A DNA stretch of 61,706 nucleotides, taken from positions 1 to 61,706 of the forward strand of contig JAQTQO010000004.1 in NCBI GenBank assembly GCA_028712155.1, given 5' to 3'. The notes under the pieces were generated by a model, which saw only the letters and a program-made list of their open reading frames with translations, was not told the DNA's origin and did no database searches. Every line of letters starts with the position of its first letter. Position 1 is the first letter of the stretch. Below are positions 42,384 through 60,831 of the stretch, piece after piece. The stretch comes from Patescibacteria group bacterium. GTDB taxonomy: Bacteria > Patescibacteriota > Patescibacteriia > Buchananbacterales > GWA2-38-13. Made by a program: the position numbers and the translations under genes.

Positions 42384-43820
42384 TCATTCGGGCGTTTCGG
42401 GATTGCGTTCGAGAATTTGTACCGCATAGTCTCCAATCTGCGATTGAGCAACGCGATAATGTGCATCGAGGTACTGGTCAACCGGCGACCCGTCGCGGTG
42501 AAAGCCCCGGCGCACGACGAAGCTGTTCGGTACCCGCACCACGATACGCGGCCGGGTCCGTTCAAGATCCGCAATGGCTTCGGCAAAAAACGGTGCGCCG
42601 GGATCGGTGCCGAACAGGGCATTGAACCGCGTCGCATTCGGCCGATCTGAGAAAAAATACACGCCCGGAGAATTCGGAGTGACAAAAATTGCCTCACCGG
42701 GCTGGGTTCGGCTCTTGACCTCGGCGACCACGGCAGCGAGGAACGGCCCGCGCTGCACGAGCTCACGTTGCAATGCCAAGCCGGCACTGGCATTTATGGT
42801 CGCCCATCCGATCCACTGCGCGGCCAATAGGCAACCGACGTAAACCAGCACGATTTTTGTCACTCGTTGCCCGCGCGGCCGCAAGGTAATTTTCCAGGGC
42901 GATACCATGCAAGTAATAAAGAGCACCGGAATCGGCCACATCACCATCGCCAGGTAGACGACATCCGCCCGCACCCAGATGCTTGCCGCCAGCAAAAACG
43001 CGCTGAGCCAGAACGGCCAGAATCCGGGCGCCTGCAACCGGACCAGCCACGCCAGCAATCCGATACCGGCAATGACCCCGATGGTTTGTATCAGCAGGTA
43101 GGGAGGAGAATAGAACTGCTGCGGGTACTGGGAGAGCGGGGAAAAAACAACGTTGCGCACCAGCTCAACCGGCGACCACACCAAAAACGGAAGCGCCGCG
43201 ACCAGCAAACCGGCCGCGTACGCCCGAAGAATCTGCCACCGCCGGGAAGCGACGATCACGAATAGACCGGCAGCCATCACGGCCGCACCGCGTGTCTGCA
43301 CCATCCACACCGTCACGCCGGCGGCTAACCCGGCGCTAAAGTACCACCCTGCCCGCCGCTGCCGCCACGCGGCAACCAGCAGGTACGTCGCCCAAATACT
43401 CGCGAGATTCGCATAGTGGTTTGGCGTCAAGAGCGGATACATGCACAAAAATGCCCACCACAGCGCGAGAACAGAAATCCGGTGCCAGATGTTTTGAGTG
43501 AATATTTTTGTGAGCCGATCCAAAACGACGGTGGTTGCCAGGGTCAGAAGCACTGTCAACAGCCGTGCCGCCAGGTAGCTGGGACCAAGTATTTTGAACA
43601 CGGCCGCCAAGAGGTAAAACGCTCCCGGGGTATGAAAATCGGAAAAGTCGCGGTACGGCACCAGGCCTTGGCTGATCTGCCACGCCTGCGTGAGCATCCA
43701 TCCCTCATCGGCATCCAGCTGGTCGAGTGACGGATACCAGCGCAGCATCAGCGCGACGCCTCCCGCCACCATGGCTGCGGCAATGACGGCGATGGTAAGA
43801 ATTCTTTTCCGCATAATCAT
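42384..43820 (-). CDS. GT-C-like membrane protein, paralog 4 of 5
   Basis: Same architecture. DEGWMLTQAWQISQGLVPYRDFSDFHTPGAFY. Start trimmed to ATG 43820 because the track ORF to 44111 overlaps paralog 5. Confidence 0.6.
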   Translation of the reverse strand: MIMRKRILTIAVIAAAMVAGGVALMLRWYPSLDQLDADEGWMLTQAWQISQGLVPYRDFSDFHTPGAFYLLAAVFKILGPSYLAARLLTVLLTLATTVVLDRLTKIFTQNIWHRISVLALWWAFLCMYPLLTPNHYANLASIWATYLLVAAWRQRRAGWYFSAGLAAGVTVWMVQTRGAAVMAAGLFVIVASRRWQILRAYAAGLLVAALPFLVWSPVELVRNVVFSPLSQYPQQFYSPPYLLIQTIGVIAGIGLLAWLVRLQAPGFWPFWLSAFLLAASIWVRADVVYLAMVMWPIPVLFITCMVSPWKITLRPRGQRVTKIVLVYVGCLLAAQWIGWATINASAGLALQRELVQRGPFLAAVVAEVKSRTQPGEAIFVTPNSPGVYFFSDRPNATRFNALFGTDPGAPFFAEAIADLERTRPRIVVRVPNSFVVRRGFHRDGSPVDQYLDAHYRVAQSQIGDYAVQILERNPETPE

Positions 43821-43824
43821 TACA

Positions 43825-45258
43825 TCACGGAATCGGTTCCATAAAAATAATCGGCCCGCGGCGTTCAAACTCGCGATAGTGCGCCTGGATATACTCATCC
43901 ACGGGGTTGTCCTGCCGGTGGCCATACTTTTCCACCGGCTGATAGTTAAGGATGGCCAGCGCCGGCGGATTGGCCTCAAGCTGCCGGCGCGCCGCGGTGA
44001 AAAATTCCGGCGGATGGAGCGTGGTGATGAGCTGGTCAAAACTGGTCGCATTGCGCCGCTGCATTTCAAAATAGGCGTTCGGCAAAAACGGGCCGGCGTA
44101 AATAGGGGCATTGGCCGGAACGCGCGCCTGCACCAGAGAAACCAATTGCCGCAGCTCGGGATTTTCCAGCCGTAACCACTGGGAGAAAGAACGCCCGGAC
44201 CACCACGGCAAATAACTCGGAAAGCTCCACAGCAAAACCGCCGCCACGGTAGCCAGGTATACCGCCGGCAACGACCACAAGATCAAATCAAACGGAATGG
44301 GTTTCCACCCCGATCCAAGTTTACCCGGATACGACAGCCACAGCACCAGCGGCATGATGGGGAATGAATTGAGAATGATATGATACGAATCCGGACGGAT
44401 GATGCTGCTTGCCATCAGCGCCAAGCTCAACCACCACCAGGCCATCACCGCCGGCCCAGCCTGTTTCCGCCAAAGCAGCCACCCCACCAGCATCACCAGC
44501 CCCAGGGCCAGGAAAAAAAATACGTAGTTGGTCCCGACCAGCGGAAGACGGTTATACCGGAACGGCAAAACGAACAAGTCCTGCCAGAGCGTCGAAGCCG
44601 GCCAAAAAATGAGCGCCGGTATGAGCGCTAAAATAAATCCGGCGGCATACCACGCGACCGATCGCCAGGATTGGCGGTAGACCTGCCAGAGGACGACGAC
44701 GCCGGCCGAAAAAACCGCCAGCCCTTTCGTGTGCAACATCCAGACGACCGCGCCGCACAGCACACCGGCAAAAAGATACCCGACGGTGCGCTTTCGCCGC
44801 AGCGCCCATTGGAGCACAACCCACGCCCATACCGCCACGCACAAGCTCCACGGGTTATGGTTGATGGACGGATAGAATGCGAACGCAACGAGGAAAAAGA
44901 CGGGTGCCACGTAACTCCGCCAGCGCGGTAAAAAGTTTCGAACGGCGATCCACAGACCAAAGCCGGAGAACAGGATCAATCCGACGCCGACGCCGCGGGC
45001 CACCGCGTAGCTCACCCCAAACAATTTAAAAAAAGCCGCCAGCAGGTAAAACGTCCCGGGCGGATAAAATTGGACAAAATCGCGGTACAACACCTGCCCC
45101 TCGCTGATCTGCCACGCGCCGGTCAATACCACGCCCGAATCCGAAGAAACGTCATGCTGCCAGAAAATGATGAATCCAACCACGGCGTACGCCAGCCAGA
45201 AAACCGCGGCACGAAACCGCGGCCCCTGTTCACGCACTGCCGGAATCATAAATTCCAT
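43825..45258 (-). CDS. GT-C-like membrane protein, paralog 5 of 5
   Basis: Same architecture. DSGVVLTGAWQISEGQVLYRDFVQFYPPGTFY. ATG 45258 is preferred (the track start is TTG 45273). Confidence 0.6.
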   Translation of the reverse strand: MEFMIPAVREQGPRFRAAVFWLAYAVVGFIIFWQHDVSSDSGVVLTGAWQISEGQVLYRDFVQFYPPGTFYLLAAFFKLFGVSYAVARGVGVGLILFSGFGLWIAVRNFLPRWRSYVAPVFFLVAFAFYPSINHNPWSLCVAVWAWVVLQWALRRKRTVGYLFAGVLCGAVVWMLHTKGLAVFSAGVVVLWQVYRQSWRSVAWYAAGFILALIPALIFWPASTLWQDLFVLPFRYNRLPLVGTNYVFFFLALGLVMLVGWLLWRKQAGPAVMAWWWLSLALMASSIIRPDSYHIILNSFPIMPLVLWLSYPGKLGSGWKPIPFDLILWSLPAVYLATVAAVLLWSFPSYLPWWSGRSFSQWLRLENPELRQLVSLVQARVPANAPIYAGPFLPNAYFEMQRRNATSFDQLITTLHPPEFFTAARRQLEANPPALAILNYQPVEKYGHRQDNPVDEYIQAHYREFERRGPIIFMEPIP

Positions 45259-46512: not shown

Positions 46513-49500
46513 TTATCCGAGCGTCAATAGCTGTTCTTTTAATTTTTCCACCTTGTGCTGCTGCGCAGTTAACTTTTCGCGTTCGGCAGATACCACCGCC
46601 TCGGGCGCGCGTTCGACAAAATTTTTGTTGGAAAGTTTTGCTTCCAGCTGCTTCAGATAATTTTTGGCTTCCTGGAGCTCGCGGGTAATGCGTTCGCGCT
46701 CTTTAGAAACGTCCAGCAACCCGGCAAGCGGCAAATGAATAGTCACTCCGGAAACTACGGCCGATGCCGCCTGCGATGGTTTGGCAAGTTTGGCCTCGAC
46801 GGTCAATTCACTGCAACGGGCAAGCGCGGTAATTACGGGTACTTGCGATTTGAGTAGCCGAGTGTGTTTGCCGGCGGCGATCTGGACGGGAACGCGCTTG
46901 GCCGGCTCAACTTTGGCCTCCGAACGCAGGTTGCGAATCGCCGTAACCACTGATTGTACGAGTGCAAAATCTTTTACTACTTTCGCGCGGCCGGCTTTTG
47001 GCCAGGACTGAATTATCAGGAGTTTTCCTGTACCAAACCGTTCCCACAGATGTTCGGTTACAAACGGCGTGAACGGATGCCACAATTTCAGCACCTGCTG
47101 CAATATATAGGAGAGGATTTTTTCCTTGCCGCCTTCGACCTTGGCGATTTCCAAATACCAGTCGGCGAATTTACTCCACGTGAATTCGTACACGGCTTCA
47201 CCCACAGCGGAAAATTCGTAGTGGTCAAGGCCGGTAGTGGCGCGCTTGATAAGGGCATCAAGCTCCGCCAGAATCCAGCGGTCGGCTAATGTCTTTGGCG
47301 TCGGCGCGGCTTTCACTGGCTTCAACTCCCCCACCGTCATGGAGACAAACCGCGCGATGTTCCAGAGTTTGTTGACGAAATTCCGGTACGACGAAATTTT
47401 TTCCTCCCACAGCTGTGTGTCGTTGCCGGCGGTGGTGCCAATCACCAAGCTGAGTCGCATCGCATCGGCGCCGTACTTTTGAATCATGTCCACCGGGTCG
47501 ATCGCGGTTTCCGGCCGCGACTTGGACATCTTGCGGCCGAGCTTGTCGCGCACCATGCCATGGAAATACACCTGGCGGAACGGCACCTCGCCGACCAAAT
47601 ACGTGCTCATCAAAATCATGCGCGCCACCCAGAAAAACAACAGGTCATAGCCGGTCTCCATTAGATTGGTCGGATGAAACGATTTCAAATCTTTCGTCTT
47701 CTCTGGCCAGCCGAGGGTCGAGAACGTCCACAGCCCGGACGAAAACCACGTATCCAAAGTATCCGGGTCCTGCTGCCACCTGTCCTCCGAAGCTTTAGCG
47801 GAGGAGAGCTCCCCTGCCGGTGCTTGCAGCCCAACGTAAGTTAATTCTCGCAGGGTGTACTTCCAGCCCGGCTGCCAGGATTTCGTTTTTCGCCAATCGG
47901 AAGCTATCGCTTCCTGCCAGGTCTTTCCGTTCAGCAAAACTTCAAGCGCAAACTGCGGCGTTTTGTGGGCAACAATGGCAACGCGCTTGCCGGCGTATTT
48001 TGCGCCAATCTCTTGCAGGAAATTCCGCACGCGGTTTTCAACATCGGTCAAACTTTCGCCTTTCGGATACGATGTATCGATTACGTCGGATTGCATCGCG
48101 TTCACCTTCTTTTCATTTGCGCGCGTGAGTGTCCCGTAGTCGCACTCCCGCAGCCGTTTATCTTGAACAATTTTATACCGATCGCCGAACGCGGTTTCAG
48201 CGGTCGCAACGGCGCGGGATAAATCAGAGCAGAACACGACATCAAAGGTTTGCCCTTTAACCTGGTCTTTCAGCTCCCGGACTTGCCGTACACCAAGTTC
48301 AGACAGTTTGGCGTCGGCCTGACCCGAGGCTTTCTCCGCTTCATTATCCACGGTAGCGCCGTGCACGAAATACGTGATGTCGACCGCCTTTGCCGGACGC
48401 GCATACCACACTGGAATGCGGTGACCAAACCAAATCTGCCGCGAGATGCACCAATCGCGCAGATGATTCATCCAATGAAAATATGTTTTGGTAAAACGGT
48501 CCGGGATTATTTCAACGTCGCCAGCGCGCACGACTTCAGCGGCGCGCTGTTTCAAGGTTTTACCCTTCAATACTTTTGATGGTTTGTTAACGGCCACAAA
48601 CCACTGCTTGGACGGCAGCGGTTCGACCGGCGTACCGCAGCGGTAGCACACCGACAGATTGTGCACGTAATTTTCGTCGATGCGGTCAACCAGACCTTTG
48701 GCCTGGAGTTTGGCGACAATTTCTTCACGACTTCCTCGCGCGTCTTTACCCGCAAACGTTCCGGCCGCTTGCGTCAGTTTTCCGTCTTCGTCAATGATCG
48801 GCACAACCGGCAGCTTGTACTTTTGCGCCAATTCAAAGTCTTCAAAGCTGTGCGCCGGGGTGATGGTCATCGCACCGGTACCAAAATCCTTGTCGGCCAC
48901 TTTGTCGGCGATGACGTGGGCTTTGACTTTGCCCTCGATCCACTCGATCTCCATTTCTTTCCCATGGAGATGTTTGTAGCGTGCGTCGTCGGGATGCACG
49001 ATGATGGTTTTGTCCTGGAATTTCGTTTCCGGCCGCGCCGTACCGATGACCACCGGGCCGTACTTGAAGTAGTAGAATTTCGTTTTCTGCTCCTTGTACT
49101 CCACCTCATCGTCCGAAAGCGTTGAGTGGCAGCGCGGACACCAGTTCACGATGCGGTAACCGCGATAGATCAAACCATCGCGGTGCATCCGCACGAATGC
49201 CTCCGACACCGCGGCTGACAACCCGGCATCCAATGTGTAGCGTTCGCGCGACCAGTCGCACGACGAGCCCATCTTGCGGGTCTGCCGGCGGATGGTGCCT
49301 TGCGAATCAGAAACGAATTTCCTGACCCGCTCCAAAAACGCTTCGCGGCCGAGTTGATTTTTCGTCTGGCCTTCTTTCGCAATTAATTTTTCCACCACCG
49401 CTTGTGTCGCAATCGCCGCATGGTCGGTGCCCGGCAGCCACAAAACTTTACGGCCGCGCATCCGCTGGAACCGCGCCACGATATTCTGCAAGGCAAGCAT

Positions 49501-49692
49501 CACCGCGTGGCCGGCATGCAAAACACCGGTCGCGTTAGGCGGCGGCATGGAAATCGTAAATGGCCTACCTTTAGACACTAAACGATCCGGCGCGAAGTAG
49601 CCGGATTTTTCCCATGTCGCGTAAATGCGGTCCTCAACACCCTGCGGATTGTATGCCGAAGGAATGGAAGATTTTTCCTTGTTTTTTGTCAT
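46513..49692 (-). CDS. valS: valyl-tRNA synthetase carrying an inserted histidine-phosphatase-like domain
   Basis: PPPNATGVLHAGH and KMSKS motifs, CP1 editing domain, C-terminal coiled coil. Insert encoded at 47839-48393. ATG 49692 (the track start is GTG 49698). Confidence 0.95.
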   Translation of the reverse strand: MTKNKEKSSIPSAYNPQGVEDRIYATWEKSGYFAPDRLVSKGRPFTISMPPPNATGVLHAGHAVMLALQNIVARFQRMRGRKVLWLPGTDHAAIATQAVVEKLIAKEGQTKNQLGREAFLERVRKFVSDSQGTIRRQTRKMGSSCDWSRERYTLDAGLSAAVSEAFVRMHRDGLIYRGYRIVNWCPRCHSTLSDDEVEYKEQKTKFYYFKYGPVVIGTARPETKFQDKTIIVHPDDARYKHLHGKEMEIEWIEGKVKAHVIADKVADKDFGTGAMTITPAHSFEDFELAQKYKLPVVPIIDEDGKLTQAAGTFAGKDARGSREEIVAKLQAKGLVDRIDENYVHNLSVCYRCGTPVEPLPSKQWFVAVNKPSKVLKGKTLKQRAAEVVRAGDVEIIPDRFTKTYFHWMNHLRDWCISRQIWFGHRIPVWYARPAKAVDITYFVHGATVDNEAEKASGQADAKLSELGVRQVRELKDQVKGQTFDVVFCSDLSRAVATAETAFGDRYKIVQDKRLRECDYGTLTRANEKKVNAMQSDVIDTSYPKGESLTDVENRVRNFLQEIGAKYAGKRVAIVAHKTPQFALEVLLNGKTWQEAIASDWRKTKSWQPGWKYTLRELTYVGLQAPAGELSSAKASEDRWQQDPDTLDTWFSSGLWTFSTLGWPEKTKDLKSFHPTNLMETGYDLLFFWVARMILMSTYLVGEVPFRQVYFHGMVRDKLGRKMSKSRPETAIDPVDMIQKYGADAMRLSLVIGTTAGNDTQLWEEKISSYRNFVNKLWNIARFVSMTVGELKPVKAAPTPKTLADRWILAELDALIKRATTGLDHYEFSAVGEAVYEFTWSKFADWYLEIAKVEGGKEKILSYILQQVLKLWHPFTPFVTEHLWERFGTGKLLIIQSWPKAGRAKVVKDFALVQSVVTAIRNLRSEAKVEPAKRVPVQIAAGKHTRLLKSQVPVITALARCSELTVEAKLAKPSQAASAVVSGVTIHLPLAGLLDVSKERERITRELQEAKNYLKQLEAKLSNKNFVERAPEAVVSAEREKLTAQQHKVEKLKEQLLTLG

Positions 49693-49716
49693 AACCACGT
49701 GTGCGGTACGGGTTTC

Positions 49717-51128: not shown

Positions 51129-51136
51129 ATAGGTGT

Positions 51137-51209
51137 GGGCCCGTAGCTCAATGGTTAGAGCATCCGGCTTATATCCGGCAGGTTGGGGGTTCGAGTCCCT
51201 CCGGGCCCA
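51137..51209 (+). tRNA. tRNA-Ile, anticodon UAU (no encoded CCA)
   Basis: Hand-folded cloverleaf. 7-bp acceptor GGGCCCG/CGGGCCC, D arm GCTC/GAGC, anticodon loop CTTATAT, T arm GGGGG-TTCGAGT-CCCTC. Confidence 0.85.
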
Positions 51210-51232
51210 ATTTCAATAATTGTCCTAACGAA

Positions 51233-53202: not shown

Positions 53203-55128
53203 ATGTCCGTACTTCCAACCCTTGGCATTTTCGTCCTCTGGTCGCTTACGGGGTTTTGGATCTGCCGCAGGGTTCTCCGCGAGCGTCGCCTCATTCTACT
53301 GGTGCCGCTCGCACCGCTGCTTGGCATGGGCGCATTTCTCCTGGCGGTGAGCATACTTGGGCTCATCGTGCCTTGGGCGTGGGCGAACATCACCGCACTC
53401 GCGCTGCCGCTCGCCGGCGCGGCGTTCCTGCCACAGCAAAAAAATATTCCCATTGAACTTGGCGTGCCGCGGTGGGCGGCGTTCACCGCCGCTGTGGCGA
53501 CGCTCGTGTTGGCAGGTTACTTCACCGTACTGTTTTCCCTCCAGCATGAGCTGCATTTTGACAGCTACTTCCATTTCCCGGTGATCGCCTCGATTGCCGC
53601 CGGGAATTTCCCGCCGCAGTTTCCTTTCCAGACAAACACCCCATTGCAGTACCACGCGGGCACGGATATGCTCGCCGCCAGCCTGCAAACGGCCACGGGC
53701 ATCGGTCCCTGGTGGGCGCTACACCTGGTCACCGTCGTCGGGCTCGCGTGCGCGTTGCTGCTTGCTTTCGGATTAGTGGCGACCATCACCGGCAGTGCGG
53801 CCGCCGGTTTCGGCGGGGCAGCCCTGCTGTTTTGCGGCCACAGCGTTGCGTACCTGCGCCAGCTTGGCACGCACGGTGCGGATGCGTTCTCGTTTCTCGC
53901 ACAAACGGCCCACGGCTACGGCATCGGGCTGCTGCATCCCGGTACGGCGCTCGCCGTTCCCATGGCGCTGGCCGCGGCGTACGTGTCCGGCCATCAGCCA
54001 TCCGGCTTCTCAAAACGAACGCGCACAGCTTTCATCGGTCTCATGCTCGGCCAATTATTTCTTTTCGCCGAAGAGTACGGCGTAATACTCGCGCTGGCAT
54101 GCCTGATAATCTCTGGATGGAACATCATGCGACAAAAATCCTCTGTACCCGCAGCACTAGGACAAATTGCACTCGTGTTCGTCATCGCGATTGCCGTGGT
54201 GCTGGTCCAGGGCGGAAGCTTGGGTGTCGGCGTTGGCGGTTCCAACCAACGCGCACTCTCCCAACTGGAATTCCGATTTCCGCCGGCGTTCCCCCGCTGG
54301 GATACCACGCAACCGGCGGCGGCGTTACCGCTTACTGACCCGCGGGCGTTCCGTTTTACGTTGGAAGAATTCGGACTCCTGCTGGTTTTACTGCCCATCA
54401 CGCTGAATTTTCTCTGGCAACGCCCGCAGCCGGTCCTGCGCCTGCTGGCGGTGACGGCAGGATTGAGCGCGGTACTCCCGTTGTTCATCACCCATCCGAC
54501 GCTTGATTTTAACCTTGCGCGGGGATTCGGTCCGCTGCGGCAGTTCGGCAACTTGATTACTGGCGCCGCGCTCGGCGCGACCGCAGTTTCCTGGTGGAAA
54601 AACCGACGCCACATCTGGCCATGGATCCCGGCGGTTGCCGTTACCTCGTTGGTTGCCGTCTACTCGTTTGGCACGATCGCCTTCACTCTCCCCCGCCTTG
54701 CACTGCTGTCCAATCCCGGGCCAAGTCTCGCACCCCGCTGGGTCACGCCGGAGGAGCAGCAGGTTGCAACGTTCGCGCGGAGGAAAATTCCTCGCAATGC
54801 GCGTGTGCTGACCCAAAATCCGGTTGCAGTCGCAACGCTGTGGGGGCGGGTCGCCCCGTTCGCCGACTGGAATACGTTCCACCTTTTCGACTGGAAAAAT
54901 TCCGATCCCCGCTACCGCCAGCTGCTTTCGGCCCCCACGGTTGCCGGCCTTGAGCAACTCGGCATCACGCACATCTATGTTGCGCCCGAACCGCTGTACT
55001 TCGCGCTCGACGTCCGGCTGCGCGATGAACTCTATCGCACCGATCCGCGTTTCTCGCTGCTCTATCGGCTGGATAGCCCGAAAGGCAGCTACCGGATTTA
55101 CGCATTCGCCCCGAAACAAGCGCCGTAA
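53203..55128 (+). CDS. large polytopic membrane protein (641 aa), possibly another GT-C-like enzyme
   Basis: At least 12 hydrophobic helices plus a C-terminal soluble domain. No clear motif. Confidence 0.5.
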   Translation: MSVLPTLGIFVLWSLTGFWICRRVLRERRLILLVPLAPLLGMGAFLLAVSILGLIVPWAWANITALALPLAGAAFLPQQKNIPIELGVPRWAAFTAAVATLVLAGYFTVLFSLQHELHFDSYFHFPVIASIAAGNFPPQFPFQTNTPLQYHAGTDMLAASLQTATGIGPWWALHLVTVVGLACALLLAFGLVATITGSAAAGFGGAALLFCGHSVAYLRQLGTHGADAFSFLAQTAHGYGIGLLHPGTALAVPMALAAAYVSGHQPSGFSKRTRTAFIGLMLGQLFLFAEEYGVILALACLIISGWNIMRQKSSVPAALGQIALVFVIAIAVVLVQGGSLGVGVGGSNQRALSQLEFRFPPAFPRWDTTQPAAALPLTDPRAFRFTLEEFGLLLVLLPITLNFLWQRPQPVLRLLAVTAGLSAVLPLFITHPTLDFNLARGFGPLRQFGNLITGAALGATAVSWWKNRRHIWPWIPAVAVTSLVAVYSFGTIAFTLPRLALLSNPGPSLAPRWVTPEEQQVATFARRKIPRNARVLTQNPVAVATLWGRVAPFADWNTFHLFDWKNSDPRYRQLLSAPTVAGLEQLGITHIYVAPEPLYFALDVRLRDELYRTDPRFSLLYRLDSPKGSYRIYAFAPKQAP

Positions 55129-55168: not shown

Positions 55169-55177
55169 ATCAGGTAC

Positions 55178-55254
55178 GGGCGGTTAGCTCAGTTGGTTAG
55201 AGCGCGTCGTTGACGTCGACGATGTCGGGGGTTCGAGTCCCTCACCGCCCACCA
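55178..55254 (+). tRNA. tRNA-Val, anticodon GAC (CCA encoded)
   Basis: Acceptor GGGCGGT/ACCGCCC, anticodon stem CGTCG/CGACG, loop TTGACGT, T arm GGGGG-TTCGAGT-CCCTC, ACCA end. Confidence 0.9.
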
Positions 55255-55257
55255 AAA

Positions 55258-55287
55258 AATGTCTACCTTCAGGGATAGACATTTTTT
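55258..55287 (+). terminator. intrinsic terminator
   Basis: AATGTCTA/TAGACATT stem, then T6. Confidence 0.75.
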
Positions 55288-55364
55288 GTATGTTGTCTTG
55301 CCGCTTCAACTATCAAACCAACAAATACGGATGGATAGCTCACTGCAGCGCATCCAACCGAATT

Positions 55365-58300
55365 TTAACTGCATGACCGCGTAAGCTGCGGCGAGCCGCC
55401 CCAGCAATCCGGCGGGTAGGTCGCATGGTCAATGGTTCTGGTCTGCTGGCCACCACTACAGGTGCTCCACGCGGAGAATATCCATGAATCACACGGCGGA
55501 CAGGTGCGGGTGTAGACCGGCTGCGCCCCGCCATAACAATCCGCGGGAAACGTCGGCGACACGGTGGGATCCGTTTCCAGGGTGCGATGCTGGATGCCGC
55601 TGGCATCGCACTTGCTCCAGGCCGAATAGTTATACGACTCGCACAGATCGCAGTCTTTTTCCAGCCAGGGATTTTCCGGAACGCACACCGCCGGCACGGT
55701 GGATTCCACCTGGCGCGTCCGTTTGCCTGTGCTTTTATCGCACTTGCTCCACGCGGTGTAGTAGACGAAATCGCAAAATTCCTTACCGCACTCCCGGCTT
55801 AAGAGCGGTTCGGCGCCGCCGTGGCAATCCGCCGGGAAAGGTATTTCAACCGTCCGCGTTTGCTGGTTGTTCACGCACGCACTCCACATCGAGTAGATGT
55901 ACGATTCGCACGCATTGCACTCTTTGGAGAGTAACGGGCTTTGGGGGACGCAGACCGCCGGAACCGTTGATTCGATCTGGCGCGTGCGCATACCGGTGCT
56001 TTGGTCGCACGCGCTCCAGGCGGTGTAGTAGACGTAATCACAGGCATCTTTGCCGCACTCCCGGCTCAACACCGGCGGCACGCCGCCGCTGCAATCCTCG
56101 GGGAAGGTAGATTCCACGGTTCGGGTCTGGCGGTTGTTCACGCACGCGCTCCACATCGAATAGATATACGATTCGCACGCGTTGCAATCCTTCTCTAACT
56201 CCGGATTATCTACCACACAGATTTTTGGAACCGTTGACTCGACCTGGCGCGTGCGCTTGCCCGTGGTTTTATTGCACGCGCTCCAGGCCGTGTAGTAGAC
56301 AAAGTCGCACGTACCCTTGCCACACTCCCGCGTCAATTCCGGCTGCACGCCGCCGCTGCAATCGGCCGGCAAGGTGGACGTGACCGTTCGCGTCTGCTTG
56401 TTGTTGACGCAGGTGCTCCAAGCCGAATAATTATATGACTCGCAGGCGTTGCAATCTTTTTCCAGCTCGGGATTTTCCACGGTGCAGATTTTTGGCACGG
56501 TGGATTCAACCTGGCGCGTGCGCTTGCCCGTGGTTTTGTTGCACGCGCTCCAGGCCGTGTAGTACACGAAGTCGCACGCCTTTTTGCCGCACTCCTGGCT
56601 GACTACCGGCTGAACTCCCCCATGGCAATCCGCCGGTAGCGTCGATTCGACGGTTCGGGTCTGATGATAATCGACGCAGGCGCTCCAGGCCGAATAGTTG
56701 TACGATTCGCAACCGTTACAATCCATACTCAACACGGGATTTTGAACGACGCAAACCTCCGGAGAGGTTGACTCGATTTGGCGAGTTTTTTTGCCCGTCG
56801 CCGCATCGCAGCTGCTCCAGGTCGTGTAATTCACAAAATCGCAGAACTCCTTGCCGCATTCTCCGCTGAGCTCCGGCCCGACTCCGCCCCGGCAGTCAGC
56901 CGGGAAAGCCGACTCAACGGCCCGGATTTTTTTATTGTTCAGGCACTTCCCCCACGCGGAATAAATGTACGATTCGCACAGCGGCTTGTTTTTCTCCGCC
57001 TTGCAATCCCGCGACACCACGGGTTCGCCGCCGGCGCATTTCCGCGGCGAAGCCGAGAAAATTCTTCGCGTTTGCTGGTTGTCATCGCACTTTCCCCACC
57101 CGCCATACGTCCACGAAGTGCAGACCGGTTTTTGCAGCGTCACAATCAAGGTAACCTTTTCGCTGTTGGTATCGGCGGCATCCTCGGTGAAGATGACAAA
57201 TTTATTCTCCCCGATATTCAACTTCACTTTGTACTTCCAACTCGTATCGGCATTGTGTTTCACGATCTGCTTATTCCCCCACCACACCGACGTCCCGGCC
57301 TCTTTGGTGCCGGTGATCGTGTACGACGGGTCGGTAATGTTATCTCCCGGCTGGTCCATCACGGGCGGTGTTGGCGGCAGGGTGTCAATGGTGAATTTTG
57401 AAATTTTTAAAACTTTGCTCATGTTGCCGGCGATATCCACCACCTGAATGGTGCAATCGTCATACGTGCCGTCCGTCAACGTCAACAGTTCAATTACATT
57501 GTTGCCCTGCTTGGCAGAAGTGCCATGCCCCTGGCACGCGCCGCCATAGATGATGTCGCCATAACGGTTATACACCGGGCTGACGGCATTGATGGCCGTT
57601 GAGCTGAACGTCACGGTCGGGTTGGGGTCGCTCCCGATGCTCGGAATTTTTTTCACTTCCTTGAGCACCGGGGCGGTGGTGTCCCACACCAGCGCAAAAT
57701 CATCGGAGCTGCTGATTTTCTTGGGGTTGACGACTTTCAACCGGATTTTGTAGACCCCGTCTTTGGTCGCGGAAATGGTGGTTTTACAGTAGGCGGCGAA
57801 ACTCGGCACCAGGCATTTTGCATTACTGAAGGTAACCTTGCCGCCCCGGGGGCCGGAAACCTGCAACCAGCGCATGTCGAGAGGCTCCGACAATCCCGTG
57901 CTCAGATCGCTCGCTTCGCCGGTCACTTCAAAGGCGGAATTTTTGTAATACACTTCAACGCCGGCATAGACCGTGAACGTTTGTTTGGCCTTCGGTTCTA
58001 CCGGGCAATCCTCACCTTCGCATTCGATGCTGGGCTGCTCTTCCAAACAGGCTCCGTCAGCGCAACCGTTAGGACAGTTATAAAACTCATTTTGGATCCG
58101 AAAGCCGTTGCAGCTTCGCTCCATCAGGAGATGCCCCTGGGGATTGGCCACGCTCACCGGCATACACACATCGGTGTATTCGGTGAATTGCTCCGCACCT
58201 TCTTTCACCGTGCCTTTGACGGCATAGTCCTTTCCGCCGTCGGTATCCGTGCAGGAGGTGGAAGACATCGAGATGAGCGCCTGCTGGCATTGCTCAAAAT

Positions 58301-58532
58301 TGTAACAAACCCCATCCGAAGCTTCGGTTGACGTCATAATCCGGTATCCGTTGCACGCGTCTTTTTTGAACGCCGGAGATTTCACGCACGCCGGATAACT
58401 GGCGGCCGGTTCATCGTCAGTTTTTGCCGCCGCAAAAATCAGCGGCAGACAAAAAAATAAAAAGACCGCAGCGAATGGTATGAAGGTAACGGCGTAATAT
58501 TTTTTCGGGAACGGCATATTTACTATGACCAT
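55365..58532 (-). CDS. secreted or anchored giant surface protein: Cys-rich N-domains, Ig-like domains, about 14 TSP1-like 4-Cys repeats
   Basis: N-terminal hydrophobic anchor. DTTAP/IDTLPP Ig-type linkers. Repeat consensus C-x8-W-S-x-C-x4-QTRTV-x7-C-x-GG-x8-EC. Confidence 0.85.
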   Translation of the reverse strand: MVIVNMPFPKKYYAVTFIPFAAVFLFFCLPLIFAAAKTDDEPAASYPACVKSPAFKKDACNGYRIMTSTEASDGVCYNFEQCQQALISMSSTSCTDTDGGKDYAVKGTVKEGAEQFTEYTDVCMPVSVANPQGHLLMERSCNGFRIQNEFYNCPNGCADGACLEEQPSIECEGEDCPVEPKAKQTFTVYAGVEVYYKNSAFEVTGEASDLSTGLSEPLDMRWLQVSGPRGGKVTFSNAKCLVPSFAAYCKTTISATKDGVYKIRLKVVNPKKISSSDDFALVWDTTAPVLKEVKKIPSIGSDPNPTVTFSSTAINAVSPVYNRYGDIIYGGACQGHGTSAKQGNNVIELLTLTDGTYDDCTIQVVDIAGNMSKVLKISKFTIDTLPPTPPVMDQPGDNITDPSYTITGTKEAGTSVWWGNKQIVKHNADTSWKYKVKLNIGENKFVIFTEDAADTNSEKVTLIVTLQKPVCTSWTYGGWGKCDDNQQTRRIFSASPRKCAGGEPVVSRDCKAEKNKPLCESYIYSAWGKCLNNKKIRAVESAFPADCRGGVGPELSGECGKEFCDFVNYTTWSSCDAATGKKTRQIESTSPEVCVVQNPVLSMDCNGCESYNYSAWSACVDYHQTRTVESTLPADCHGGVQPVVSQECGKKACDFVYYTAWSACNKTTGKRTRQVESTVPKICTVENPELEKDCNACESYNYSAWSTCVNNKQTRTVTSTLPADCSGGVQPELTRECGKGTCDFVYYTAWSACNKTTGKRTRQVESTVPKICVVDNPELEKDCNACESYIYSMWSACVNNRQTRTVESTFPEDCSGGVPPVLSRECGKDACDYVYYTAWSACDQSTGMRTRQIESTVPAVCVPQSPLLSKECNACESYIYSMWSACVNNQQTRTVEIPFPADCHGGAEPLLSRECGKEFCDFVYYTAWSKCDKSTGKRTRQVESTVPAVCVPENPWLEKDCDLCESYNYSAWSKCDASGIQHRTLETDPTVSPTFPADCYGGAQPVYTRTCPPCDSWIFSAWSTCSGGQQTRTIDHATYPPDCWGGSPQLTRSCS
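55494..56978. repeat. coding tandem repeat, period 267 bp (89 aa), about 5.5 units
   Basis: For example, 56226-56310 and 56493-56577 are near-identical at offset 267. Confidence 0.9.
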
Positions 58533-58548
58533 TAAGTGAGTAAATAAA

Positions 58549-60831
58549 TTAAAACATCACTTCCAATTTCCCCAGCATGGGATTTTGGATGGAAAAAGTC
58601 AGGTGCAGGGTCAGGCCAACCTTGGAAACCCATAAACTCCCTCCTTCAGATTCGTCAATTTTATAACCCAGCTCTTCATATTTTTTTTGTACCGCTTCCA
58701 CATCCGCGCGCGTAGCCAGGCGCGAAAAAACATAGGTGAGCCACATGCCGCTCATGCTGTCCTTCAGCTTCACCTGGTTATTATACACCTGGTTGAGTAT
58801 GGGCAGGAGCTCGGCATGCACGGTTTTATTCTTCTCCCCCTCCGCCGCGACTTCTTTGGTATTGTCGTAATTGATCTGTACCCAGGACTTGGCAACGGGC
58901 GGCGTTGCGGCCTGCCCCGGCGCGGATGGAACAACCGGGCTTGCCGTATCGGCGGTCAGGTATGCGCAGTTTGGCGCCACGGCGACTTTTTTATACGTGC
59001 AAATATTGCGCGCCCTATTCTTTATCGTGGGAACTTTTTCCTTAACTTTTTTATTGATGTTCAATTTCAAATCCGCTGCCGCACCAACGCTCATGTCCTG
59101 CATCACCAGATAACTGCTCTGGTCTTCAACGGTTGCCTGGGGGTGATCGGAAACCTTGGCGCAACCGCTCACATTGCCGTTGGCATCCACCTTGATCAAA
59201 GCGGCTTCTTTGTAAGGTTCCAGGCTCATCATCACCATGTGCTGTTCGGTGGTCAGAAGACTGGCGGCGATCACCACCCCTTTATCCGCAGTCGGCGCGA
59301 TGCCGTAGCCCGACAGATCTCTTTCAATATCGTATTTTTTCACCCAGCGGGGGTTGAAGTCTGCGTCGGTTTTTATCAGGCCAATATTGCTGGCCTGGGC
59401 GTCAGCCAAAACCTGCATCGCCGCGGTATCCGCGTCGCCGAACGTTTTTATTTCGGGAATAACGTTGACGGCATCAAAACAATCCGCGCCCAGTTCCTCG
59501 CATTTTTCATTGAATGCTTTCCTTTTTTGGGCGGCGTCGGTACTTTTGGCTTCAATACCGTCGCTGTCGCGCATCACATCTTGCATGAAAATAAATTGCC
59601 CGTCCGCAGTTTTTACCACCTGAAAATCATTGGCACCGGGAGCGGATAACAGACTGGCGGTTAATTTTTTCGCCCATACATATCCGCCCGCGCCGTCCAC
59701 TTTCACCGCCACCAAAGGGCGCGGTGAAAAAATAGTGACGTTGGATACATTCAATCCGCCGGTTAAGCCCTGGGTGAGCGCAAAATTGTCAAACCCGAAA
59801 GCGATGAAACCGCCGTCGGGCGTTGCCTCAACCGCGCGGAAATCACCTCCCGCCATGCGAATTTTTGTCACGCCCAGCGTGACCCCGCCGCCGGAGTAAC
59901 TCGTTGGCGCAGTAATTTCCGACGGGATCATCTCCATGCTCTTCGACCAGGACACATTGAAATTACCGTCGAGTTTGATCATGGTGGGCAAAGCGTGCAT
60001 CACCACTTCCGGCCCCAGAACATTTTCCGGCTGCTCCGCCTTGGGAACGGTGAGGTTGGCTAAGGCGATGAAACTGCCGTCGGATAAGCGCTCCATGTCC
60101 TCGGCCTCCCAATCCATTTTTTTGGCGAGTACCACCTTGCCGTTTTTATCGATCTTGATGAAGGCGCTGTATCTTGGCACGGTATCGAGGTCGGCGATAT
60201 CATCGCCATAACCGGTTTTGGTGAAACGGCCGAGAACCATCACGGCGCCGTTCGGCAGTGCCCATAATTTTTGCGGCCGGTCCAGACTGTAATCGCCAAG
60301 CATCAACGACCACACCAGGGTGCCCCGAGAGTTCAATTTGGTAATGAGAATGTCGCCGTAGACTTCTTTGACATTTTCATCCACAAAATCCAGCACATCA
60401 TTGGCCATGATGATATTGCCGTCGGTGGTCTCCACGGTGAGACGCCCGATGCGCCGGGATGACATGAGCCCCAAGGCTAAGCTCTGGCTGGAAAACCAAC
60501 GAGTCCACGATGGATTTCCTTTGGCGTCCGTTTTGATGATAAACGGCTTGGGAGCAGCCATGCCCGAGGCCGGGAGCGTATCGCCGGTCAATAAAAACCC
60601 GCCATTTTTTAGTGGCGAGACACCGAAACCGTCCGTCAAATCAAGCAAACGAAAAGTTTTGATGAGCGTGGCGGAATTCACGGATTTCGTGGCACAGGTA
60701 CTTGCGGTTTGCGCTTGTCCGACTAGTGTCCCACCGACCACGATACCGGCAATAACCAAAATTGCTAAAGAGGAAATTATGGTTGGCCAAAAAAGAGGGG
60801 GGCCTGTTCTGCGTCTGCCCGCATCACGCAT
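58549..60831 (-). CDS. secreted beta-propeller-like repeat protein (760 aa)
   Basis: TM/signal anchor. At least seven repeats of hydrophobic-K-x-D-x2-G-x3-W-x-K type (IIKTDAKGNPSWTRWF, LIKTDADFNPRWVKKY, ...). Confidence 0.75.
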   Translation of the reverse strand: MRDAGRRRTGPPLFWPTIISSLAILVIAGIVVGGTLVGQAQTASTCATKSVNSATLIKTFRLLDLTDGFGVSPLKNGGFLLTGDTLPASGMAAPKPFIIKTDAKGNPSWTRWFSSQSLALGLMSSRRIGRLTVETTDGNIIMANDVLDFVDENVKEVYGDILITKLNSRGTLVWSLMLGDYSLDRPQKLWALPNGAVMVLGRFTKTGYGDDIADLDTVPRYSAFIKIDKNGKVVLAKKMDWEAEDMERLSDGSFIALANLTVPKAEQPENVLGPEVVMHALPTMIKLDGNFNVSWSKSMEMIPSEITAPTSYSGGGVTLGVTKIRMAGGDFRAVEATPDGGFIAFGFDNFALTQGLTGGLNVSNVTIFSPRPLVAVKVDGAGGYVWAKKLTASLLSAPGANDFQVVKTADGQFIFMQDVMRDSDGIEAKSTDAAQKRKAFNEKCEELGADCFDAVNVIPEIKTFGDADTAAMQVLADAQASNIGLIKTDADFNPRWVKKYDIERDLSGYGIAPTADKGVVIAASLLTTEQHMVMMSLEPYKEAALIKVDANGNVSGCAKVSDHPQATVEDQSSYLVMQDMSVGAAADLKLNINKKVKEKVPTIKNRARNICTYKKVAVAPNCAYLTADTASPVVPSAPGQAATPPVAKSWVQINYDNTKEVAAEGEKNKTVHAELLPILNQVYNNQVKLKDSMSGMWLTYVFSRLATRADVEAVQKKYEELGYKIDESEGGSLWVSKVGLTLHLTFSIQNPMLGKLEVMF

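What the first reader, a model, noticed from the sequence alone, without database searches (positions are those of the whole stretch)
55365..58532. Giant surface protein with about 14 thrombospondin-type-1-like Trp/Arg/Cys repeats encoded by a 267-bp tandem array
The C-terminal 585 residues (nt 55368-57122) consist of alternating A and B modules of 44-45 aa, each with four Cys. A type: CESY-x-YS-[AM]-WS-x-C-VNN-x-QTRTV-x-ST-x-P-x-DC-x-GG-x2-P-x-L-[ST]-RECGK. B type: CDFVYYTAWSACxxxTGKRTRQVESTVPxxCVxxNPxLEKDCNA. Six A+B units have an exact 89-aa (267-bp) period (55494-56978). Units 2 and 3 are nearly identical at the DNA level, so the array is evolving by recent unit duplication or conversion. 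The pattern has three parts: W-S-x-C on the first strand, an R-x-R or Q-T-R-T-V segment on the second, and paired cysteines including C-x-GG and x-E-C. This is the layout of the eukaryotic thrombospondin type 1 repeat (Trp-Arg ladder stapled by disulfides), which is an adhesion module. Such repeats are very unusual in bacteria. Upstream in the same protein are Cys-rich TDTDGGKDY-type modules and Ig-like domains. For an organism that may live attached to a host cell, this is a prime adhesin candidate.
Basis: partly seen in the sequence, partly recalled or inferred. Interest (0 to 1): 0.65.

Follow-up and report, generated by a model that had tools for sequence, protein, structure and literature searches.

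The report
Bacterial mini-thrombospondin-like repeat surface protein
A secreted or surface protein of an uncultured Magasanikbacteria-like (CPR) bacterium ends in 13 small four-cysteine modules that belong to a large, unnamed prokaryotic domain family and look like a stripped-down relative of the animal thrombospondin type-1 / midkine-pleiotrophin module.

Summary
The gene is real: 55365-58532, minus strand, 1055 aa. An independent contig supports the assembly. The C-terminal 585 residues are 13 modules (not 14) of 40-48 aa with exactly four Cys each, in the order AABABABABABAA. That gives five (not six) complete 267-bp A+B pairs.

The claim that units are nearly identical in DNA is wrong. The closest pair is 77.5% identical, with 31 synonymous and 14 non-synonymous codon differences. 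Five orthologs have 11 modules.

The module is not rare in bacteria. A profile finds 1,568 cluster representatives in CPR, Nitrospirota, Myxococcota, Bacteroidota, Bdellovibrionota and a DPANN archaeon, fused to many extracellular domains. No Pfam or NCBIfam model covers it.

It is not a canonical TSR: it has 4 Cys rather than 6, one invariant Arg, and fails the TSP_1 models. Several weak signals still point to the TSR superfamily:
- Weak Pfam hits concentrate on TSR-type models.
- Some family members pass the PTN_MK_C threshold.
- hhalign against midkine/pleiotrophin C-domains gives P=8e-5, and 0 of 600 shuffles reach that score.
- hhalign against real TSRs gives P=0.006.
- The AF2 model (pLDDT 94) is three-stranded.
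- 30 of 45 Foldseek hits are TSR-bearing chains, although none is individually significant.

Best reading: a disulfide-stapled mini-TSR stalk or adhesion array on an extracellular protein. The adhesin role is inferred, not shown.

The parts
55365..58532 (-). CDS of the 1055-aa multidomain extracellular protein. The stop codon is 55365-55367. The database gene call starts at the second ATG (58517) and gives 1050 aa.
   Evidence: ORF list. 100% match to P0001 and 68-71% identity to orthologs P0002-P0006. An independent contig covers it.
58425..58532 (-). N-terminal signal peptide or membrane anchor (aa 1-36). The hydrophobic run is aa 14-36 and ends in AAA/K.
   Evidence: Read from the sequence. 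No predictor was available, so cleavage versus anchoring is not decided.
58047..58253 (-). Cys-rich module CTDTDGGKDY...CPNGCADGAC (aa 94-162). No Pfam model covers it.
   Evidence: Matches the same module in P0018 (Aenigmarchaeota), P0026 and P0029. P0003 and P0004 carry more or variant copies.
57138..57980 (-). Ig-like region (aa 185-465), with Big_13 at aa 303-384 and a Big_6-like stretch at aa 398-464.
   Evidence: Pfam Big_13 scores 27.9 bits (cut-off 27). Big_6 scores 19 bits, below threshold. Hits P0007-P0037 align to this region.
55371..57122 (-). Array of 13 four-Cys mini-TSR (PTN/MK-C-like) modules, order AABABABABABAA.

Unit coordinates (nt):
- 1A 57003-57122
- 2A 56856-56978
- 3B 56718-56843
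- 4A 56589-56711
- 5B 56451-56576
- 6A 56322-56444
- 7B 56184-56309
- 8A 56055-56177
- 9B 55917-56042
- 10A 55788-55910
- 11B 55650-55775
- 12A 55500-55643
- 13A 55371-55493

Linkers are 2-4 aa, apart from 8 aa after unit 1.
   Evidence: AF2 gives pLDDT 81.4 for an A+B pair and 94.2 for a single unit. Family profile search.
55644..56978 (-). Five complete 267-bp (89-aa) A+B super-repeats: A2B3, A4B5, A6B7, A8B9 and A10B11.
   Evidence: TRF period 267. Exact 89-aa spacing, and pairwise DNA identity of 64-78%.
58549..60831 (-). Conserved partner gene directly upstream (16-nt gap). It encodes a 760-aa protein with an N-terminal hydrophobic segment and no Pfam family. It is probably co-transcribed.
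   Evidence: 47% identity to the gene directly upstream of ortholog P0006, and 31% to a gene near ortholog P0002. No Pfam hit. Weak SBBP beta-propeller lipoprotein hint, E 0.039.

Best explanation
The gene encodes an exported, modular cell-surface or secreted protein of a Magasanikbacteria-like CPR bacterium.

Domain order: an N-terminal signal or anchor, one Cys-rich module, about three Ig-like domains, then a C-terminal rod of 13 tandem modules of about 41 aa.

Each module is a minimal member of the thrombospondin-type-1 / midkine-pleiotrophin structural superfamily. It has three short antiparallel strands. Strand A carries [FWY]-x-Y-x-x-W-x-x-C. Strand B carries the single invariant Arg (Q-T-R-T-V in A units, K-R-T-R-Q-V in B units). 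Four invariant Cys are present.

Inferred, not shown:
- The Cys form two disulfides, C1-C3 and C2-C4, by analogy with the midkine C-domain.
- The Arg is sandwiched between the strand-A aromatics.

The modules are joined by 2-4-residue linkers. A and B types alternate, so neighbours are about 45% identical while same-type units are 76-95% identical. I infer that this gives a semi-rigid, disulfide-stapled stalk some tens of nanometres long, which either projects the protein from the cell or itself serves as a multivalent binding surface. The most likely role is attachment to another cell or to a polymer.

Shown: the gene, the module anatomy, family membership, conservation under purifying selection, and remote similarity to TSR and PTN/MK.

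Inferred: the disulfide pairing, the Trp/Arg stacking, the extracellular location, and the stalk or adhesin function.
For: Gene and array:
- Anatomy is established.
- Orthologs are 68-71% identical and have the same architecture.
- Synonymous differences exceed non-synonymous ones between units.
- An independent contig covers the array.

Family:
- hmmsearch with the 68-unit profile finds 1,568, 605 and 147 representatives at E<=1e-3, 1e-10 and 1e-30.
- Of 954 full units, 943 have 4 Cys, with dominant spacing C-x10-C-x17-C-x10-C.
- C1, Y6, W9, C12, R20, P27, C30 and C41 are invariant or nearly so in the family logo.
- The module is fused to Trypsin_2, S8 peptidase, NosD/beta-helix, cohesin, SH3_3, cytochrome c, PG-binding and Big_13 domains. 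This is an extracytoplasmic context.

Link to TSR and PTN/MK:
- PTN_MK_C scores 20.8 bits on the window protein.
- Family member P0051 passes PF01091 with 46.2 bits against a cut-off of 25.3.
- 6 of the 120 listed relatives carry a precomputed PF01091 hit.
- Of 23 weak unit-versus-Pfam hits, 18 are to PTN_MK_C, TSP_1, TSP1_ADAMTS or TSP1_spondin.
- hhalign against 4 real PTN/MK C-domains scores 21.7 (P=8e-5). No shuffle reaches it in 300 free or 300 Cys-fixed trials.
- hhalign against 7 real TSRs scores 15.05 (P=0.0064), reached by 4 of 300 shuffles.
- hhalign against TRAP TSRs scores 13.7, reached by 5 of 200 shuffles.
- By the same method the accepted PTN/MK-C to TSR relation scores only 9.9-12.1.

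Structure:
- The AF2 single unit has pLDDT 94.2, with strands at 3-6, 16-18/21-25 and 38-40.
- 30 of 45 Foldseek PDB hits are chains of TSR-containing proteins: C6-C9, properdin, midkine, pleiotrophin, MIC2, Sema5A TSR3-4 and Unc5D.
Against: - No Foldseek match is significant. The best E is 0.06 for the pair and 1.8 for the single unit. TMq is 0.43-0.53 and unrelated chains (XPA, ELAPOR1, Fabs) are mixed in.
- Profile searches of PDB sequences found nothing.
- The window protein fails the gathering thresholds of PTN_MK_C, TSP_1 and TSP1_spondin.
- The significant hhalign stretch covers only 18-25 columns, that is strand A, the hairpin and the start of strand B.
- The module has 4 Cys rather than 6, and one conserved Arg rather than two or three.
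- Units are neutral to acidic (array pI 5.3, family mean net charge about 0), unlike the basic, heparin-binding PTN/MK and TSRs. The ligand type therefore cannot be carried over.
- Disulfide pairing and Trp-Arg stacking were not observable.
- The signal peptide was judged by eye only.
- There is no functional data, and every family member found is from an uncultured MAG.
Confidence: 0.6

Rival explanations
1. Convergence. The module is an independent prokaryotic Cys-stapled three-stranded mini-fold. It resembles TSR and PTN/MK only because small disulfide-rich beta modules with a W-x-x-C and an Arg recur by chance or by physical constraint. There is no common ancestry and no shared mechanism.
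For: Foldseek E-values are all non-significant. There are no HMM-to-sequence hits in the PDB. The Cys number and spacing differ from TSRs. The significant hhalign segment is short, 18-25 columns. The 6-Cys sister variant gives no TSR Pfam hit.
Against: Among 24,736 Pfam models, the weak hits fall almost only on TSR-type families. Some family members pass PF01091's curated threshold. Composition-matched and Cys-fixed shuffles never reach the PTN/MK score. The bacterial profile bridges PTN/MK-C and TSRs better than those two match each other. Foldseek hits are strongly enriched in TSR-bearing chains.
Confidence: 0.25
2. Metal-binding module. The four invariant Cys of each unit bind a metal ion (Zn or Fe) instead of forming disulfides. 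The array would then be a metal-binding or redox-related extracellular scaffold.
For: Each unit has four invariant Cys. Some family members are fused to cytochrome c domains. The host is probably an anaerobe from a landfill, where disulfide formation is less obvious. XPA zinc-finger chains appear among the weak Foldseek hits.
Against: The Cys are spaced 10, 17 and 10 residues apart, not in CxxC knuckles. The closest sequence relatives (PTN/MK C-domain, TSRs) use disulfides (PMC8955691). The fusion partners are typical exported domains. AF2 places the Cys at the strand ends of a three-stranded sheet with high confidence and without any metal.
Confidence: 0.05
3. Passive spacer only. The fold assignment is right, but the array has no ligand. 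It merely holds the Ig-like and Cys-rich N-terminal part, or a partner such as the conserved upstream 760-aa protein, away from or on the cell surface.
For: Across the family, the unit sits next to very diverse catalytic and binding domains, as generic spacers such as fn3, PKD and Big do. The units are uncharged and 31% Ser/Thr. Copy number varies, 11 versus 13.
Against: In this protein the array is at the extreme C-terminus with nothing distal to it. That is odd for a spacer if the N-terminus is the anchor. Surface positions are well conserved between orthologous units.
Confidence: 0.1

Closest known systems
Midkine / pleiotrophin C-terminal domain (Pfam PF01091 PTN_MK_C; PDB 1MKC, 2LUT, 2LUU, 2N6F)
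   Same: Both have four Cys with nearly the same spacing: C-x9-C-x21-C-x9-C there and C-x10-C-x17-C-x10-C here. A family register variant has exactly x9 for the first gap. Both share the core [FY]-x-x-W-G-x-C ... T-[KQ]-x-R, and both are three-stranded antiparallel modules. hhalign gives P=8e-5, and some family members pass the Pfam threshold.
   Different: PTN/MK are small, two-domain, strongly basic animal cytokines that bind heparin and chondroitin sulfate. The bacterial unit is neutral to acidic, rich in Ser/Thr, has a conserved P-x-G-C-x-G-G segment, and occurs in arrays of 3-14 in large prokaryotic exoproteins. The window protein itself is below the PF01091 cut-off (20.8 versus 25.3 bits).
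Thrombospondin type 1 repeat (TSR; Pfam TSP_1, TSP1_spondin, TSP1_ADAMTS; e.g. 1LSL, properdin, TRAP 4HQF)
   Same: Both have an aromatic ladder ending W-x-x-C on strand A, followed by an Arg-bearing strand B and a third strand. Y6, W9 and C12 align with the W-x-x-W-x-x-C of real TSRs. The N-terminal Cys before strand A matches the TRAP-type repeats. hhalign gives P=0.006-0.012, and Foldseek hits are enriched in TSR-bearing chains.
   Different: The bacterial unit is about 41 aa rather than 50-60. It has 4 Cys rather than 6, no CSVTCG hairpin insertion, and one invariant Arg rather than an R-x-R(-x-R) ladder. It fails all TSR Pfam thresholds (best 14 bits against 41, and 12.7 against 21.6).
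Alternating-module stalks of Gram-positive surface proteins (for example G5-E repeats of SasG/Aap). This comparison is from general knowledge and was not tested here.
   Same: Both are long tandem arrays of small beta modules built from two alternating unit types joined by very short linkers, on an exported protein. Copy number varies between strains or genomes.
   Different: The folds are unrelated and those stalks have no cysteines. They are sortase-anchored at the C-terminus, whereas this protein has no C-terminal anchor motif.
Bacterial thrombospondin type 3 repeats (Pfam TSP3_bac / TSP_3)
   Same: Only the name, and the fact that a 'thrombospondin' repeat occurs in bacteria. One family member (P0094) carries a TSP3_bac repeat next to the mini-TSR units.
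   Different: Type 3 repeats are Asp-rich calcium-binding loops with no relation to the Cys/Trp/Arg module.

Membership tests
Canonical TSR (Pfam TSP_1 PF00090 / TSP1_spondin PF19028 / TSP1_ADAMTS PF19030) | Scores above the curated gathering threshold of a TSR model | tested here: not met
   In the window protein and its units, only TSP1_spondin hits, at 14.0 bits against a cut-off of 41. Across 55 diverse units the best E-values are TSP_1 0.0046 and TSP1_ADAMTS 0.028, all below threshold. P0042 scores 12.7 bits for TSP_1 against 21.6.
Canonical TSR | Six conserved Cys forming three disulfides | tested here: not met
   All 13 window units have exactly 4 Cys, as do 943 of 954 family units. Real TSRs aligned here have 6.
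Canonical TSR | W-x-x-W(-x-x-W)-x-x-C aromatic ladder on strand A | tested here: inconclusive
   The unit has [FWY]4-x-Y6-x-x-W9-x-x-C12. W9 is 93% and Y6 is 99% conserved in the family. Y6, W9 and C12 align with W, W and C of real TSRs, but only one Trp is conserved and the first aromatic is one position out of register.
Canonical TSR | R-x-R(-x-R) on strand B, interdigitating with the Trp ladder (CWR layers) | not testable with these tools
   At sequence level there is one invariant Arg (R20, 99%). B units have K-R-T-R. The stacking geometry could not be inspected because model coordinates are not returned.
Canonical TSR | Elongated three-stranded antiparallel fold superposable on solved TSRs | tested here: inconclusive
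   AF2 (pLDDT 94.2) gives strand A at 3-6, strand B at 16-25 and strand C at 38-40. 30 of 45 Foldseek hits are chains of TSR-containing proteins, but the best E is 0.06 (pair) or 1.8 (single unit), with TMq 0.43-0.53.
Canonical TSR | Profile-profile similarity to genuine TSR sequences beyond composition | tested here: met
   hhalign scores 15.05 (P=0.0064), and 4 of 300 column shuffles reach it. Against TRAP it scores 13.7, reached by 5 of 200 shuffles. This is modest support.
PTN/MK C-terminal domain (PF01091) | Scores above the PF01091 gathering threshold (25.3 bits) | tested here: not met
   The window protein scores 20.8 bits and single units 12.7-14.5. Family relatives do pass: P0051 scores 46.2 bits, and 6 of the 120 listed relatives carry a precomputed PF01091 hit.
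PTN/MK C-terminal domain (PF01091) | Four Cys with about 10 / about 20 / about 10 spacing and the [FY]-x-x-W-G-x-C...T-x-x-R core | tested here: met
   PDB sequences of 1mkc, 2lut, 2luu and 2n6f compared with unit spacing. hhalign scores 21.7 (P=8e-5, probability 61%). None of 300 free and none of 300 Cys-fixed shuffles reach it.
PTN/MK C-terminal domain (PF01091) | Basic clusters that bind heparin or chondroitin sulfate; a small two-domain secreted cytokine | tested here: not met
   The array has pI 5.33 and net charge -10. Units have net charge -4 to +2. The family mean net charge is about 0. The architecture is a 1055-aa multidomain protein.
Bacterial Ig-like domain Big_13 (PF19077) | Scores above the gathering threshold (27 bits) | tested here: met
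   27.9 bits, aa 303-384. The precomputed PF19077 is also present on P0001, P0002 and P0004-P0006. This applies to the middle of the protein, not to the repeats.

The most novel reading that the evidence does not exclude
The roughly 41-aa four-Cys unit is a genuine homolog of the eukaryotic TSR and midkine/pleiotrophin modules, and it represents their prokaryotic sister or ancestral form. On this reading it is an old, widespread extracellular module of CPR bacteria, Nitrospirota, Myxococcota and DPANN archaea, from which the 'animal/apicomplexan' adhesion domain was derived. It would not be a recent transfer from eukaryotes. In CPR episymbionts it would mediate attachment to host cells.
Probability: 0.3. 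Interest if true: 0.75.

Novelty: new variant of a known kind. Interest (0 to 1): 0.55.

Why it matters
TSRs are textbook eukaryotic adhesion modules, found in thrombospondins, properdin, ADAMTS and apicomplexan TRAP/CSP. Reviews treat them as an animal-type domain (PMC3417536).

Here a large prokaryotic family lacks any Pfam or NCBIfam model. It has at least 1,568 clusters at 50% identity and often 3-14 copies per protein. It turns out to be a minimal relative that links TSRs and the midkine/pleiotrophin C-domain better than those two match each other.

Three things follow:
- Naming the domain would annotate thousands of 'hypothetical' exoproteins of CPR, Nitrospirota and other uncultured lineages.
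- It gives a testable hypothesis for the origin of the TSR fold.
- It flags candidate attachment proteins in CPR bacteria, whose host-contact machinery is largely unknown.

For this particular window, the finding is one ordinary member of that family. It has an extra A+B pair, and the array is not rapidly evolving.

Tried and rejected
- Unit-profile searches of PDB sequences found no hit even at E<=10, with either the 13-unit or the 55-unit profile. A whole-protein search found none either.
- The word-indexed protein search with the unit alignment collected only 7 candidates and returned nothing. This is a tool limitation. The exhaustive HMM scan and a search with P0040 replaced it.
- Foldseek with a single high-confidence unit gave only 8 weak hits. 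The domain is too small for significant E-values.
- The idea that the unit is an already named bacterial Cys-repeat fold is rejected. Neither Pfam nor NCBIfam covers it in the window protein or in 8 relatives.
- The idea that the 6-Cys sister variant would score as a canonical TSR is rejected. It gets no TSR Pfam hit.
- Recent duplication or gene conversion within the array is rejected. DNA identity is 64-78%, with an excess of synonymous changes.
- Assembly collapse or expansion of the repeat is rejected. An independent contig is collinear and shows no joints.
- Inferring disulfide pairing from co-loss of Cys was uninformative. The apparent C1 losses are register shifts or belong to the 6-Cys variant.
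- Literature searches for a described bacterial TSR or midkine-like module found nothing relevant. This does not prove that none exists.
- Shadow ORFs on the plus strand across the array (for example 55484-56110 and 56778-57401) are artefacts of the repeat and GC content, not genes.

Full report
**1. The observation**

The ORF at 55365-58532 on the minus strand exists and encodes 1055 aa. The protein database holds the same gene called from the second ATG, giving 1050 aa.

Tandem Repeats Finder reports a 267-bp period over 55696-56753: 4 copies, 75% matches, score 928.

Translation shows 13 W-x-x-C modules between aa 471 and 1054. Each has exactly four Cys, 52 Cys in total. Two module types alternate as AABABABABABAA:
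- A type has C-x-G-G.
- B type begins C-D-F-V-Y-Y and has K-R-T-R.

A-type starts at aa 519, 608, 697, 786, 875 and 964 are exactly 89 aa apart. This gives five complete A+B pairs (nt 55644-56978), followed by A12 with a 7-aa insertion and then A13.

The counts are slightly high: 13 modules rather than about 14, and five full pairs rather than six.

An independent Logan contig (6,014 bp, about 7x depth) from a landfill metagenome covers 55177-59000. It has no gaps or joints, so the array is not an assembly artefact.

**2. The DNA-level claim fails**

The most similar pair of 267-bp units (A4B5 and A6B7) is 77.5% identical in DNA and 84% in protein. The longest identical run is 29 bp. There are 31 synonymous and 14 non-synonymous codon differences. 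Other pairs are 64-75% identical. This is an old array kept by purifying selection, not one that is being homogenised or recently expanded.

Copy number does differ between genomes. Five orthologs (P0002-P0006, 68-71% identity; P0002 is labelled Candidatus Magasanikbacteria) all have 11 modules in the order AABABABABAA. Window units B5 and B7 both map best to ortholog unit B5 in four of the five orthologs. So the window carries an old duplicate of the second pair, or the others lost one.

**3. The rest of the protein and its neighbourhood**

- The N-terminus has a 23-residue hydrophobic segment ending AAA/K. It is either a signal peptide or an anchor.
- aa 94-162 is a Cys-rich module, CTDTDGGKDY...CPNGCADGAC. 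It has no Pfam model but recurs in CPR and DPANN proteins.
- aa 185-465 is Ig-like. Big_13 scores 27.9 bits against a cut-off of 27, and Big_6 is below threshold.
- The array runs to the last residues, with no C-terminal anchor motif.
- Linkers are 4 aa after A units (GKxx) and 2 aa after B units (NA, NG or DL).

The gene 16 nt upstream (58549-60831, 760 aa, no Pfam) is a conserved neighbour. It is 47% identical to the gene directly upstream of ortholog P0006 and 31% identical to a gene near P0002.

Other neighbours are housekeeping genes: ValRS, TyrRS, GlnA and tRNAs.

**4. The module defines a large, unnamed family**

An exhaustive hmmsearch used a 68-unit profile (the window plus its orthologs) against 1.84 billion cluster representatives. 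It found 1,568 proteins at E<=1e-3, 605 at E<=1e-10 and 147 at E<=1e-30, typically with 3-14 units each.

In the 278 proteins fetched there are 954 full-length units. Of these, 943 have exactly 4 Cys. The dominant spacing is C-x10-C-x17-C-x10-C.

The consensus is C-[TS]-S-[FW]-T-Y-S-x-W-[GS]-x-C-Q-x-[ND]-[GN]-T-Q-T-R-T-V-x-S-S-S-P-x-G-C-T-G-G-x-P-V-L-[ST]-Q-S-C. Positions C1, Y6, W9, C12, R20, P27, C30 and C41 are invariant or nearly so. Mean net charge is about 0 and Ser+Thr content is 31%.

Source labels include Kuenen-, Staskawicz-, Pace-, Dojka-, Moran- and Magasanikbacteria, Nitrospirota, Anaeromyxobacter and other 'delta-proteobacteria', Bacteroidota, Pseudobdellovibrio and Candidatus Ainarchaeum. 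Every one is an uncultured MAG.

Partner domains are typical of exported proteins: Trypsin_2, S8 peptidase, NosD/beta-helix, cohesin, SH3_3, cytochrome c, PG-binding, fn3 and Big_13.

No Pfam (2025 copy) or NCBIfam (2026) model covers the unit. So 'very unusual in bacteria' is not true of this module. What is unusual is that it has gone unannotated.

**5. Is it TSR-like?**

Against membership as a canonical TSR:
- All TSR Pfam models are far below threshold.
- The unit has 4 Cys rather than 6, about 41 aa rather than 50-60, no CSVTCG hairpin, and one invariant Arg.

For a superfamily relationship, several independent weak signals agree:

(a) Each of 55 diverse units was scanned alone against all 24,736 Pfam models. 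This gave 23 weak hits, and 18 fall on TSR-type models: PTN_MK_C 9, TSP_1 4, TSP1_ADAMTS 3 and TSP1_spondin 2.

(b) Some family members pass the curated PTN_MK_C threshold. P0051 scores 46.2 bits against 25.3, and 6 of the 120 listed relatives carry a precomputed PF01091 hit. These are the register variant C-S-Y-T-Y-S-x-W-G-x-C, whose first Cys gap equals that of midkine.

(c) I took genuine sequences from PDB chains and ran hhalign with composition-preserving controls.

| Comparison | hhalign score | P | Shuffles reaching the score |
|---|---|---|---|
| Bacterial profile vs 4 midkine/pleiotrophin C-domains | 21.7 | 8e-5 | 0 of 300 free, 0 of 300 Cys-fixed (max 17.8) |
| Bacterial profile vs 7 thrombospondin-1/properdin TSRs | 15.05 | 0.0064 | 4 of 300 |
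| Bacterial profile vs TRAP TSRs | 13.7 | 0.012 | 5 of 200 |
| PTN/MK-C vs TSRs (accepted relation, for calibration) | 9.9 | 0.14 | not run |
| PTN/MK-C vs TRAP (accepted relation, for calibration) | 12.1 | 0.043 | not run |

By the same method, the accepted relation between PTN/MK-C and TSRs scores lower than either bacterial comparison. The bacterial profile therefore sits between the two. The aligned core is Y6-x-x-W9-x-x-C12 ... Q-T-R20, matched to W-x-x-W-x-x-C ... R.

(d) AF2 gives a confident all-beta model: pLDDT 94.2 for a single unit with a 55-row alignment, and 81.4 for an A+B pair. Strands lie at 3-6, 16-18/21-25 and 38-40, which is a TSR-like three-strand arrangement.

(e) For the A+B model, 30 of 45 Foldseek PDB hits are chains of proteins that contain TSR or TSR-like domains: C6, C7, C8, C9, properdin, midkine, pleiotrophin, MIC2, semaphorin-5A TSR3-4 and Unc5D. 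No hit is individually significant (best E 0.06). The single-unit search is weaker still (best E 1.8, TMq 0.43-0.53) and mixes in XPA and ELAPOR1. The tool does not show which part of the large complement chains is aligned.

PTN/MK domains are described in the literature as TSR-type, three-stranded, disulfide-stabilised, heparin-binding modules (PMC8955691, citing Kilpelainen 2000 and Raulo 2005).

**6. What could not be tested**

Model coordinates are not exposed. The two features that would clinch the case could not be inspected: the C1-C3/C2-C4 disulfides and the stacking of R20 between W9 and Y6/F4. An indirect test through co-loss of Cys was uninformative. No signal-peptide predictor was available.

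**7. Mechanism**

Most likely (confidence about 0.6), this is an exported protein whose C-terminal 585 residues form a semi-rigid rod of 13 disulfide-stapled mini-TSR modules.

Alternating A and B types keeps neighbouring modules at about 45% identity. Same-type modules are 76-95% identical, read directly from the unit sequences. The short linkers argue for a stiff stalk.

The units are neutral to acidic. Heparin-type polyanion binding, as in PTN/MK and TSRs, should therefore not be assumed. Any ligand is more likely a protein or neutral glycan surface.

CPR bacteria are thought to live attached to hosts (general knowledge), and the array is terminal. An attachment role is therefore reasonable, but it is an inference.

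Rivals:
- Convergent mini-fold without homology (0.25).
- Passive spacer (0.1).
- Metal-binding Cys4 module (0.05).

**8. Novelty and verdict**

I found no description of this bacterial module in the literature, in Pfam or in NCBIfam. I class it as a new variant of a known kind: a minimal, four-Cys prokaryotic relative of the TSR and PTN/MK superfamily.

Its claims of rarity in bacteria and of recent repeat turnover are not.

The window's gene is one ordinary member of a large family. The family itself is the interesting object.

Noticed in passing
window 46513-49698 (-): The valyl-tRNA synthetase (1061 aa) carries a histidine-phosphatase-superfamily domain (His_Phos_1, aa 446-584, E 4e-30) inserted inside the class-I catalytic domain. 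This is an unusual fusion or insertion for a ValRS.
   Followed up: no
window 51136-51210 (+): A tRNA-Ile with anticodon UAU (tat). Most bacteria read AUA with a lysidine-modified CAU tRNA, so this may say something about AUA decoding in this lineage.
   Followed up: no
window 58047-58253 (-), aa 94-162 of the same protein: The Cys-rich module CTDTDGGKDY...CPNGCADGAC has no Pfam model. It recurs, often in many copies, in CPR and DPANN proteins (P0018 Aenigmarchaeota, P0026, P0029, P0044). Orthologs P0003 and P0004 carry extra or variant copies. This is a second unannotated extracellular module.
   Followed up: partly
window 58549-60831 (-); L003 3763-5841; L001 10998-13253: A 760-aa protein with an N-terminal hydrophobic segment, no Pfam family and a faint SBBP beta-propeller lipoprotein hint. 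It is a conserved neighbour of the repeat protein (47% and 31% identity in ortholog loci) and lies 16 nt upstream, so it is probably co-transcribed.
   Followed up: partly
family proteins, e.g. P0203 aa 437-481, P0045 562-606, P0254, P0209: A 6-Cys sister variant of the unit (C-x3-4-W-x-C-x2-W-x2-C-x5-9-R-x-C-x5-C-x11-13-C) occurs in 35 of 278 fetched proteins, usually once beside arrays of the 4-Cys unit. It has a Cys just after the Arg strand, as canonical TSRs do, but gives no TSR Pfam hit.
   Followed up: partly
family proteins P0042, P0071, P0094, P0149, P0068, P0227: In Nitrospirota and 'delta-proteobacterial'-type proteins, the mini-TSR units are interleaved with mono- or dihaem cytochrome c domains (CxxCH). 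That is an unexpected partner for an adhesion-type module.
   Followed up: no
window 53203-55128 (+) and 42384-44111 (-): A 641-aa polytopic membrane protein with no Pfam hit lies convergent to the repeat gene. A PMT_2 (GT-C mannosyltransferase-type) protein lies 11 kb away, among several large genes, two of which (39433-40896 and 40902-42377) have no Pfam hit. The units are Ser/Thr-rich and eukaryotic TSRs are glycosylated, so a glycosylation link is conceivable. The neighbourhood is not conserved in ortholog loci.
   Followed up: no
window 55178-55254 (+): tRNA-Val(GAC) lies immediately downstream of the gene. It shows word depth in the hundreds to thousands, against about 7 for its flanks, because many organisms in the metagenome share it. 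Contigs break there.
   Followed up: no
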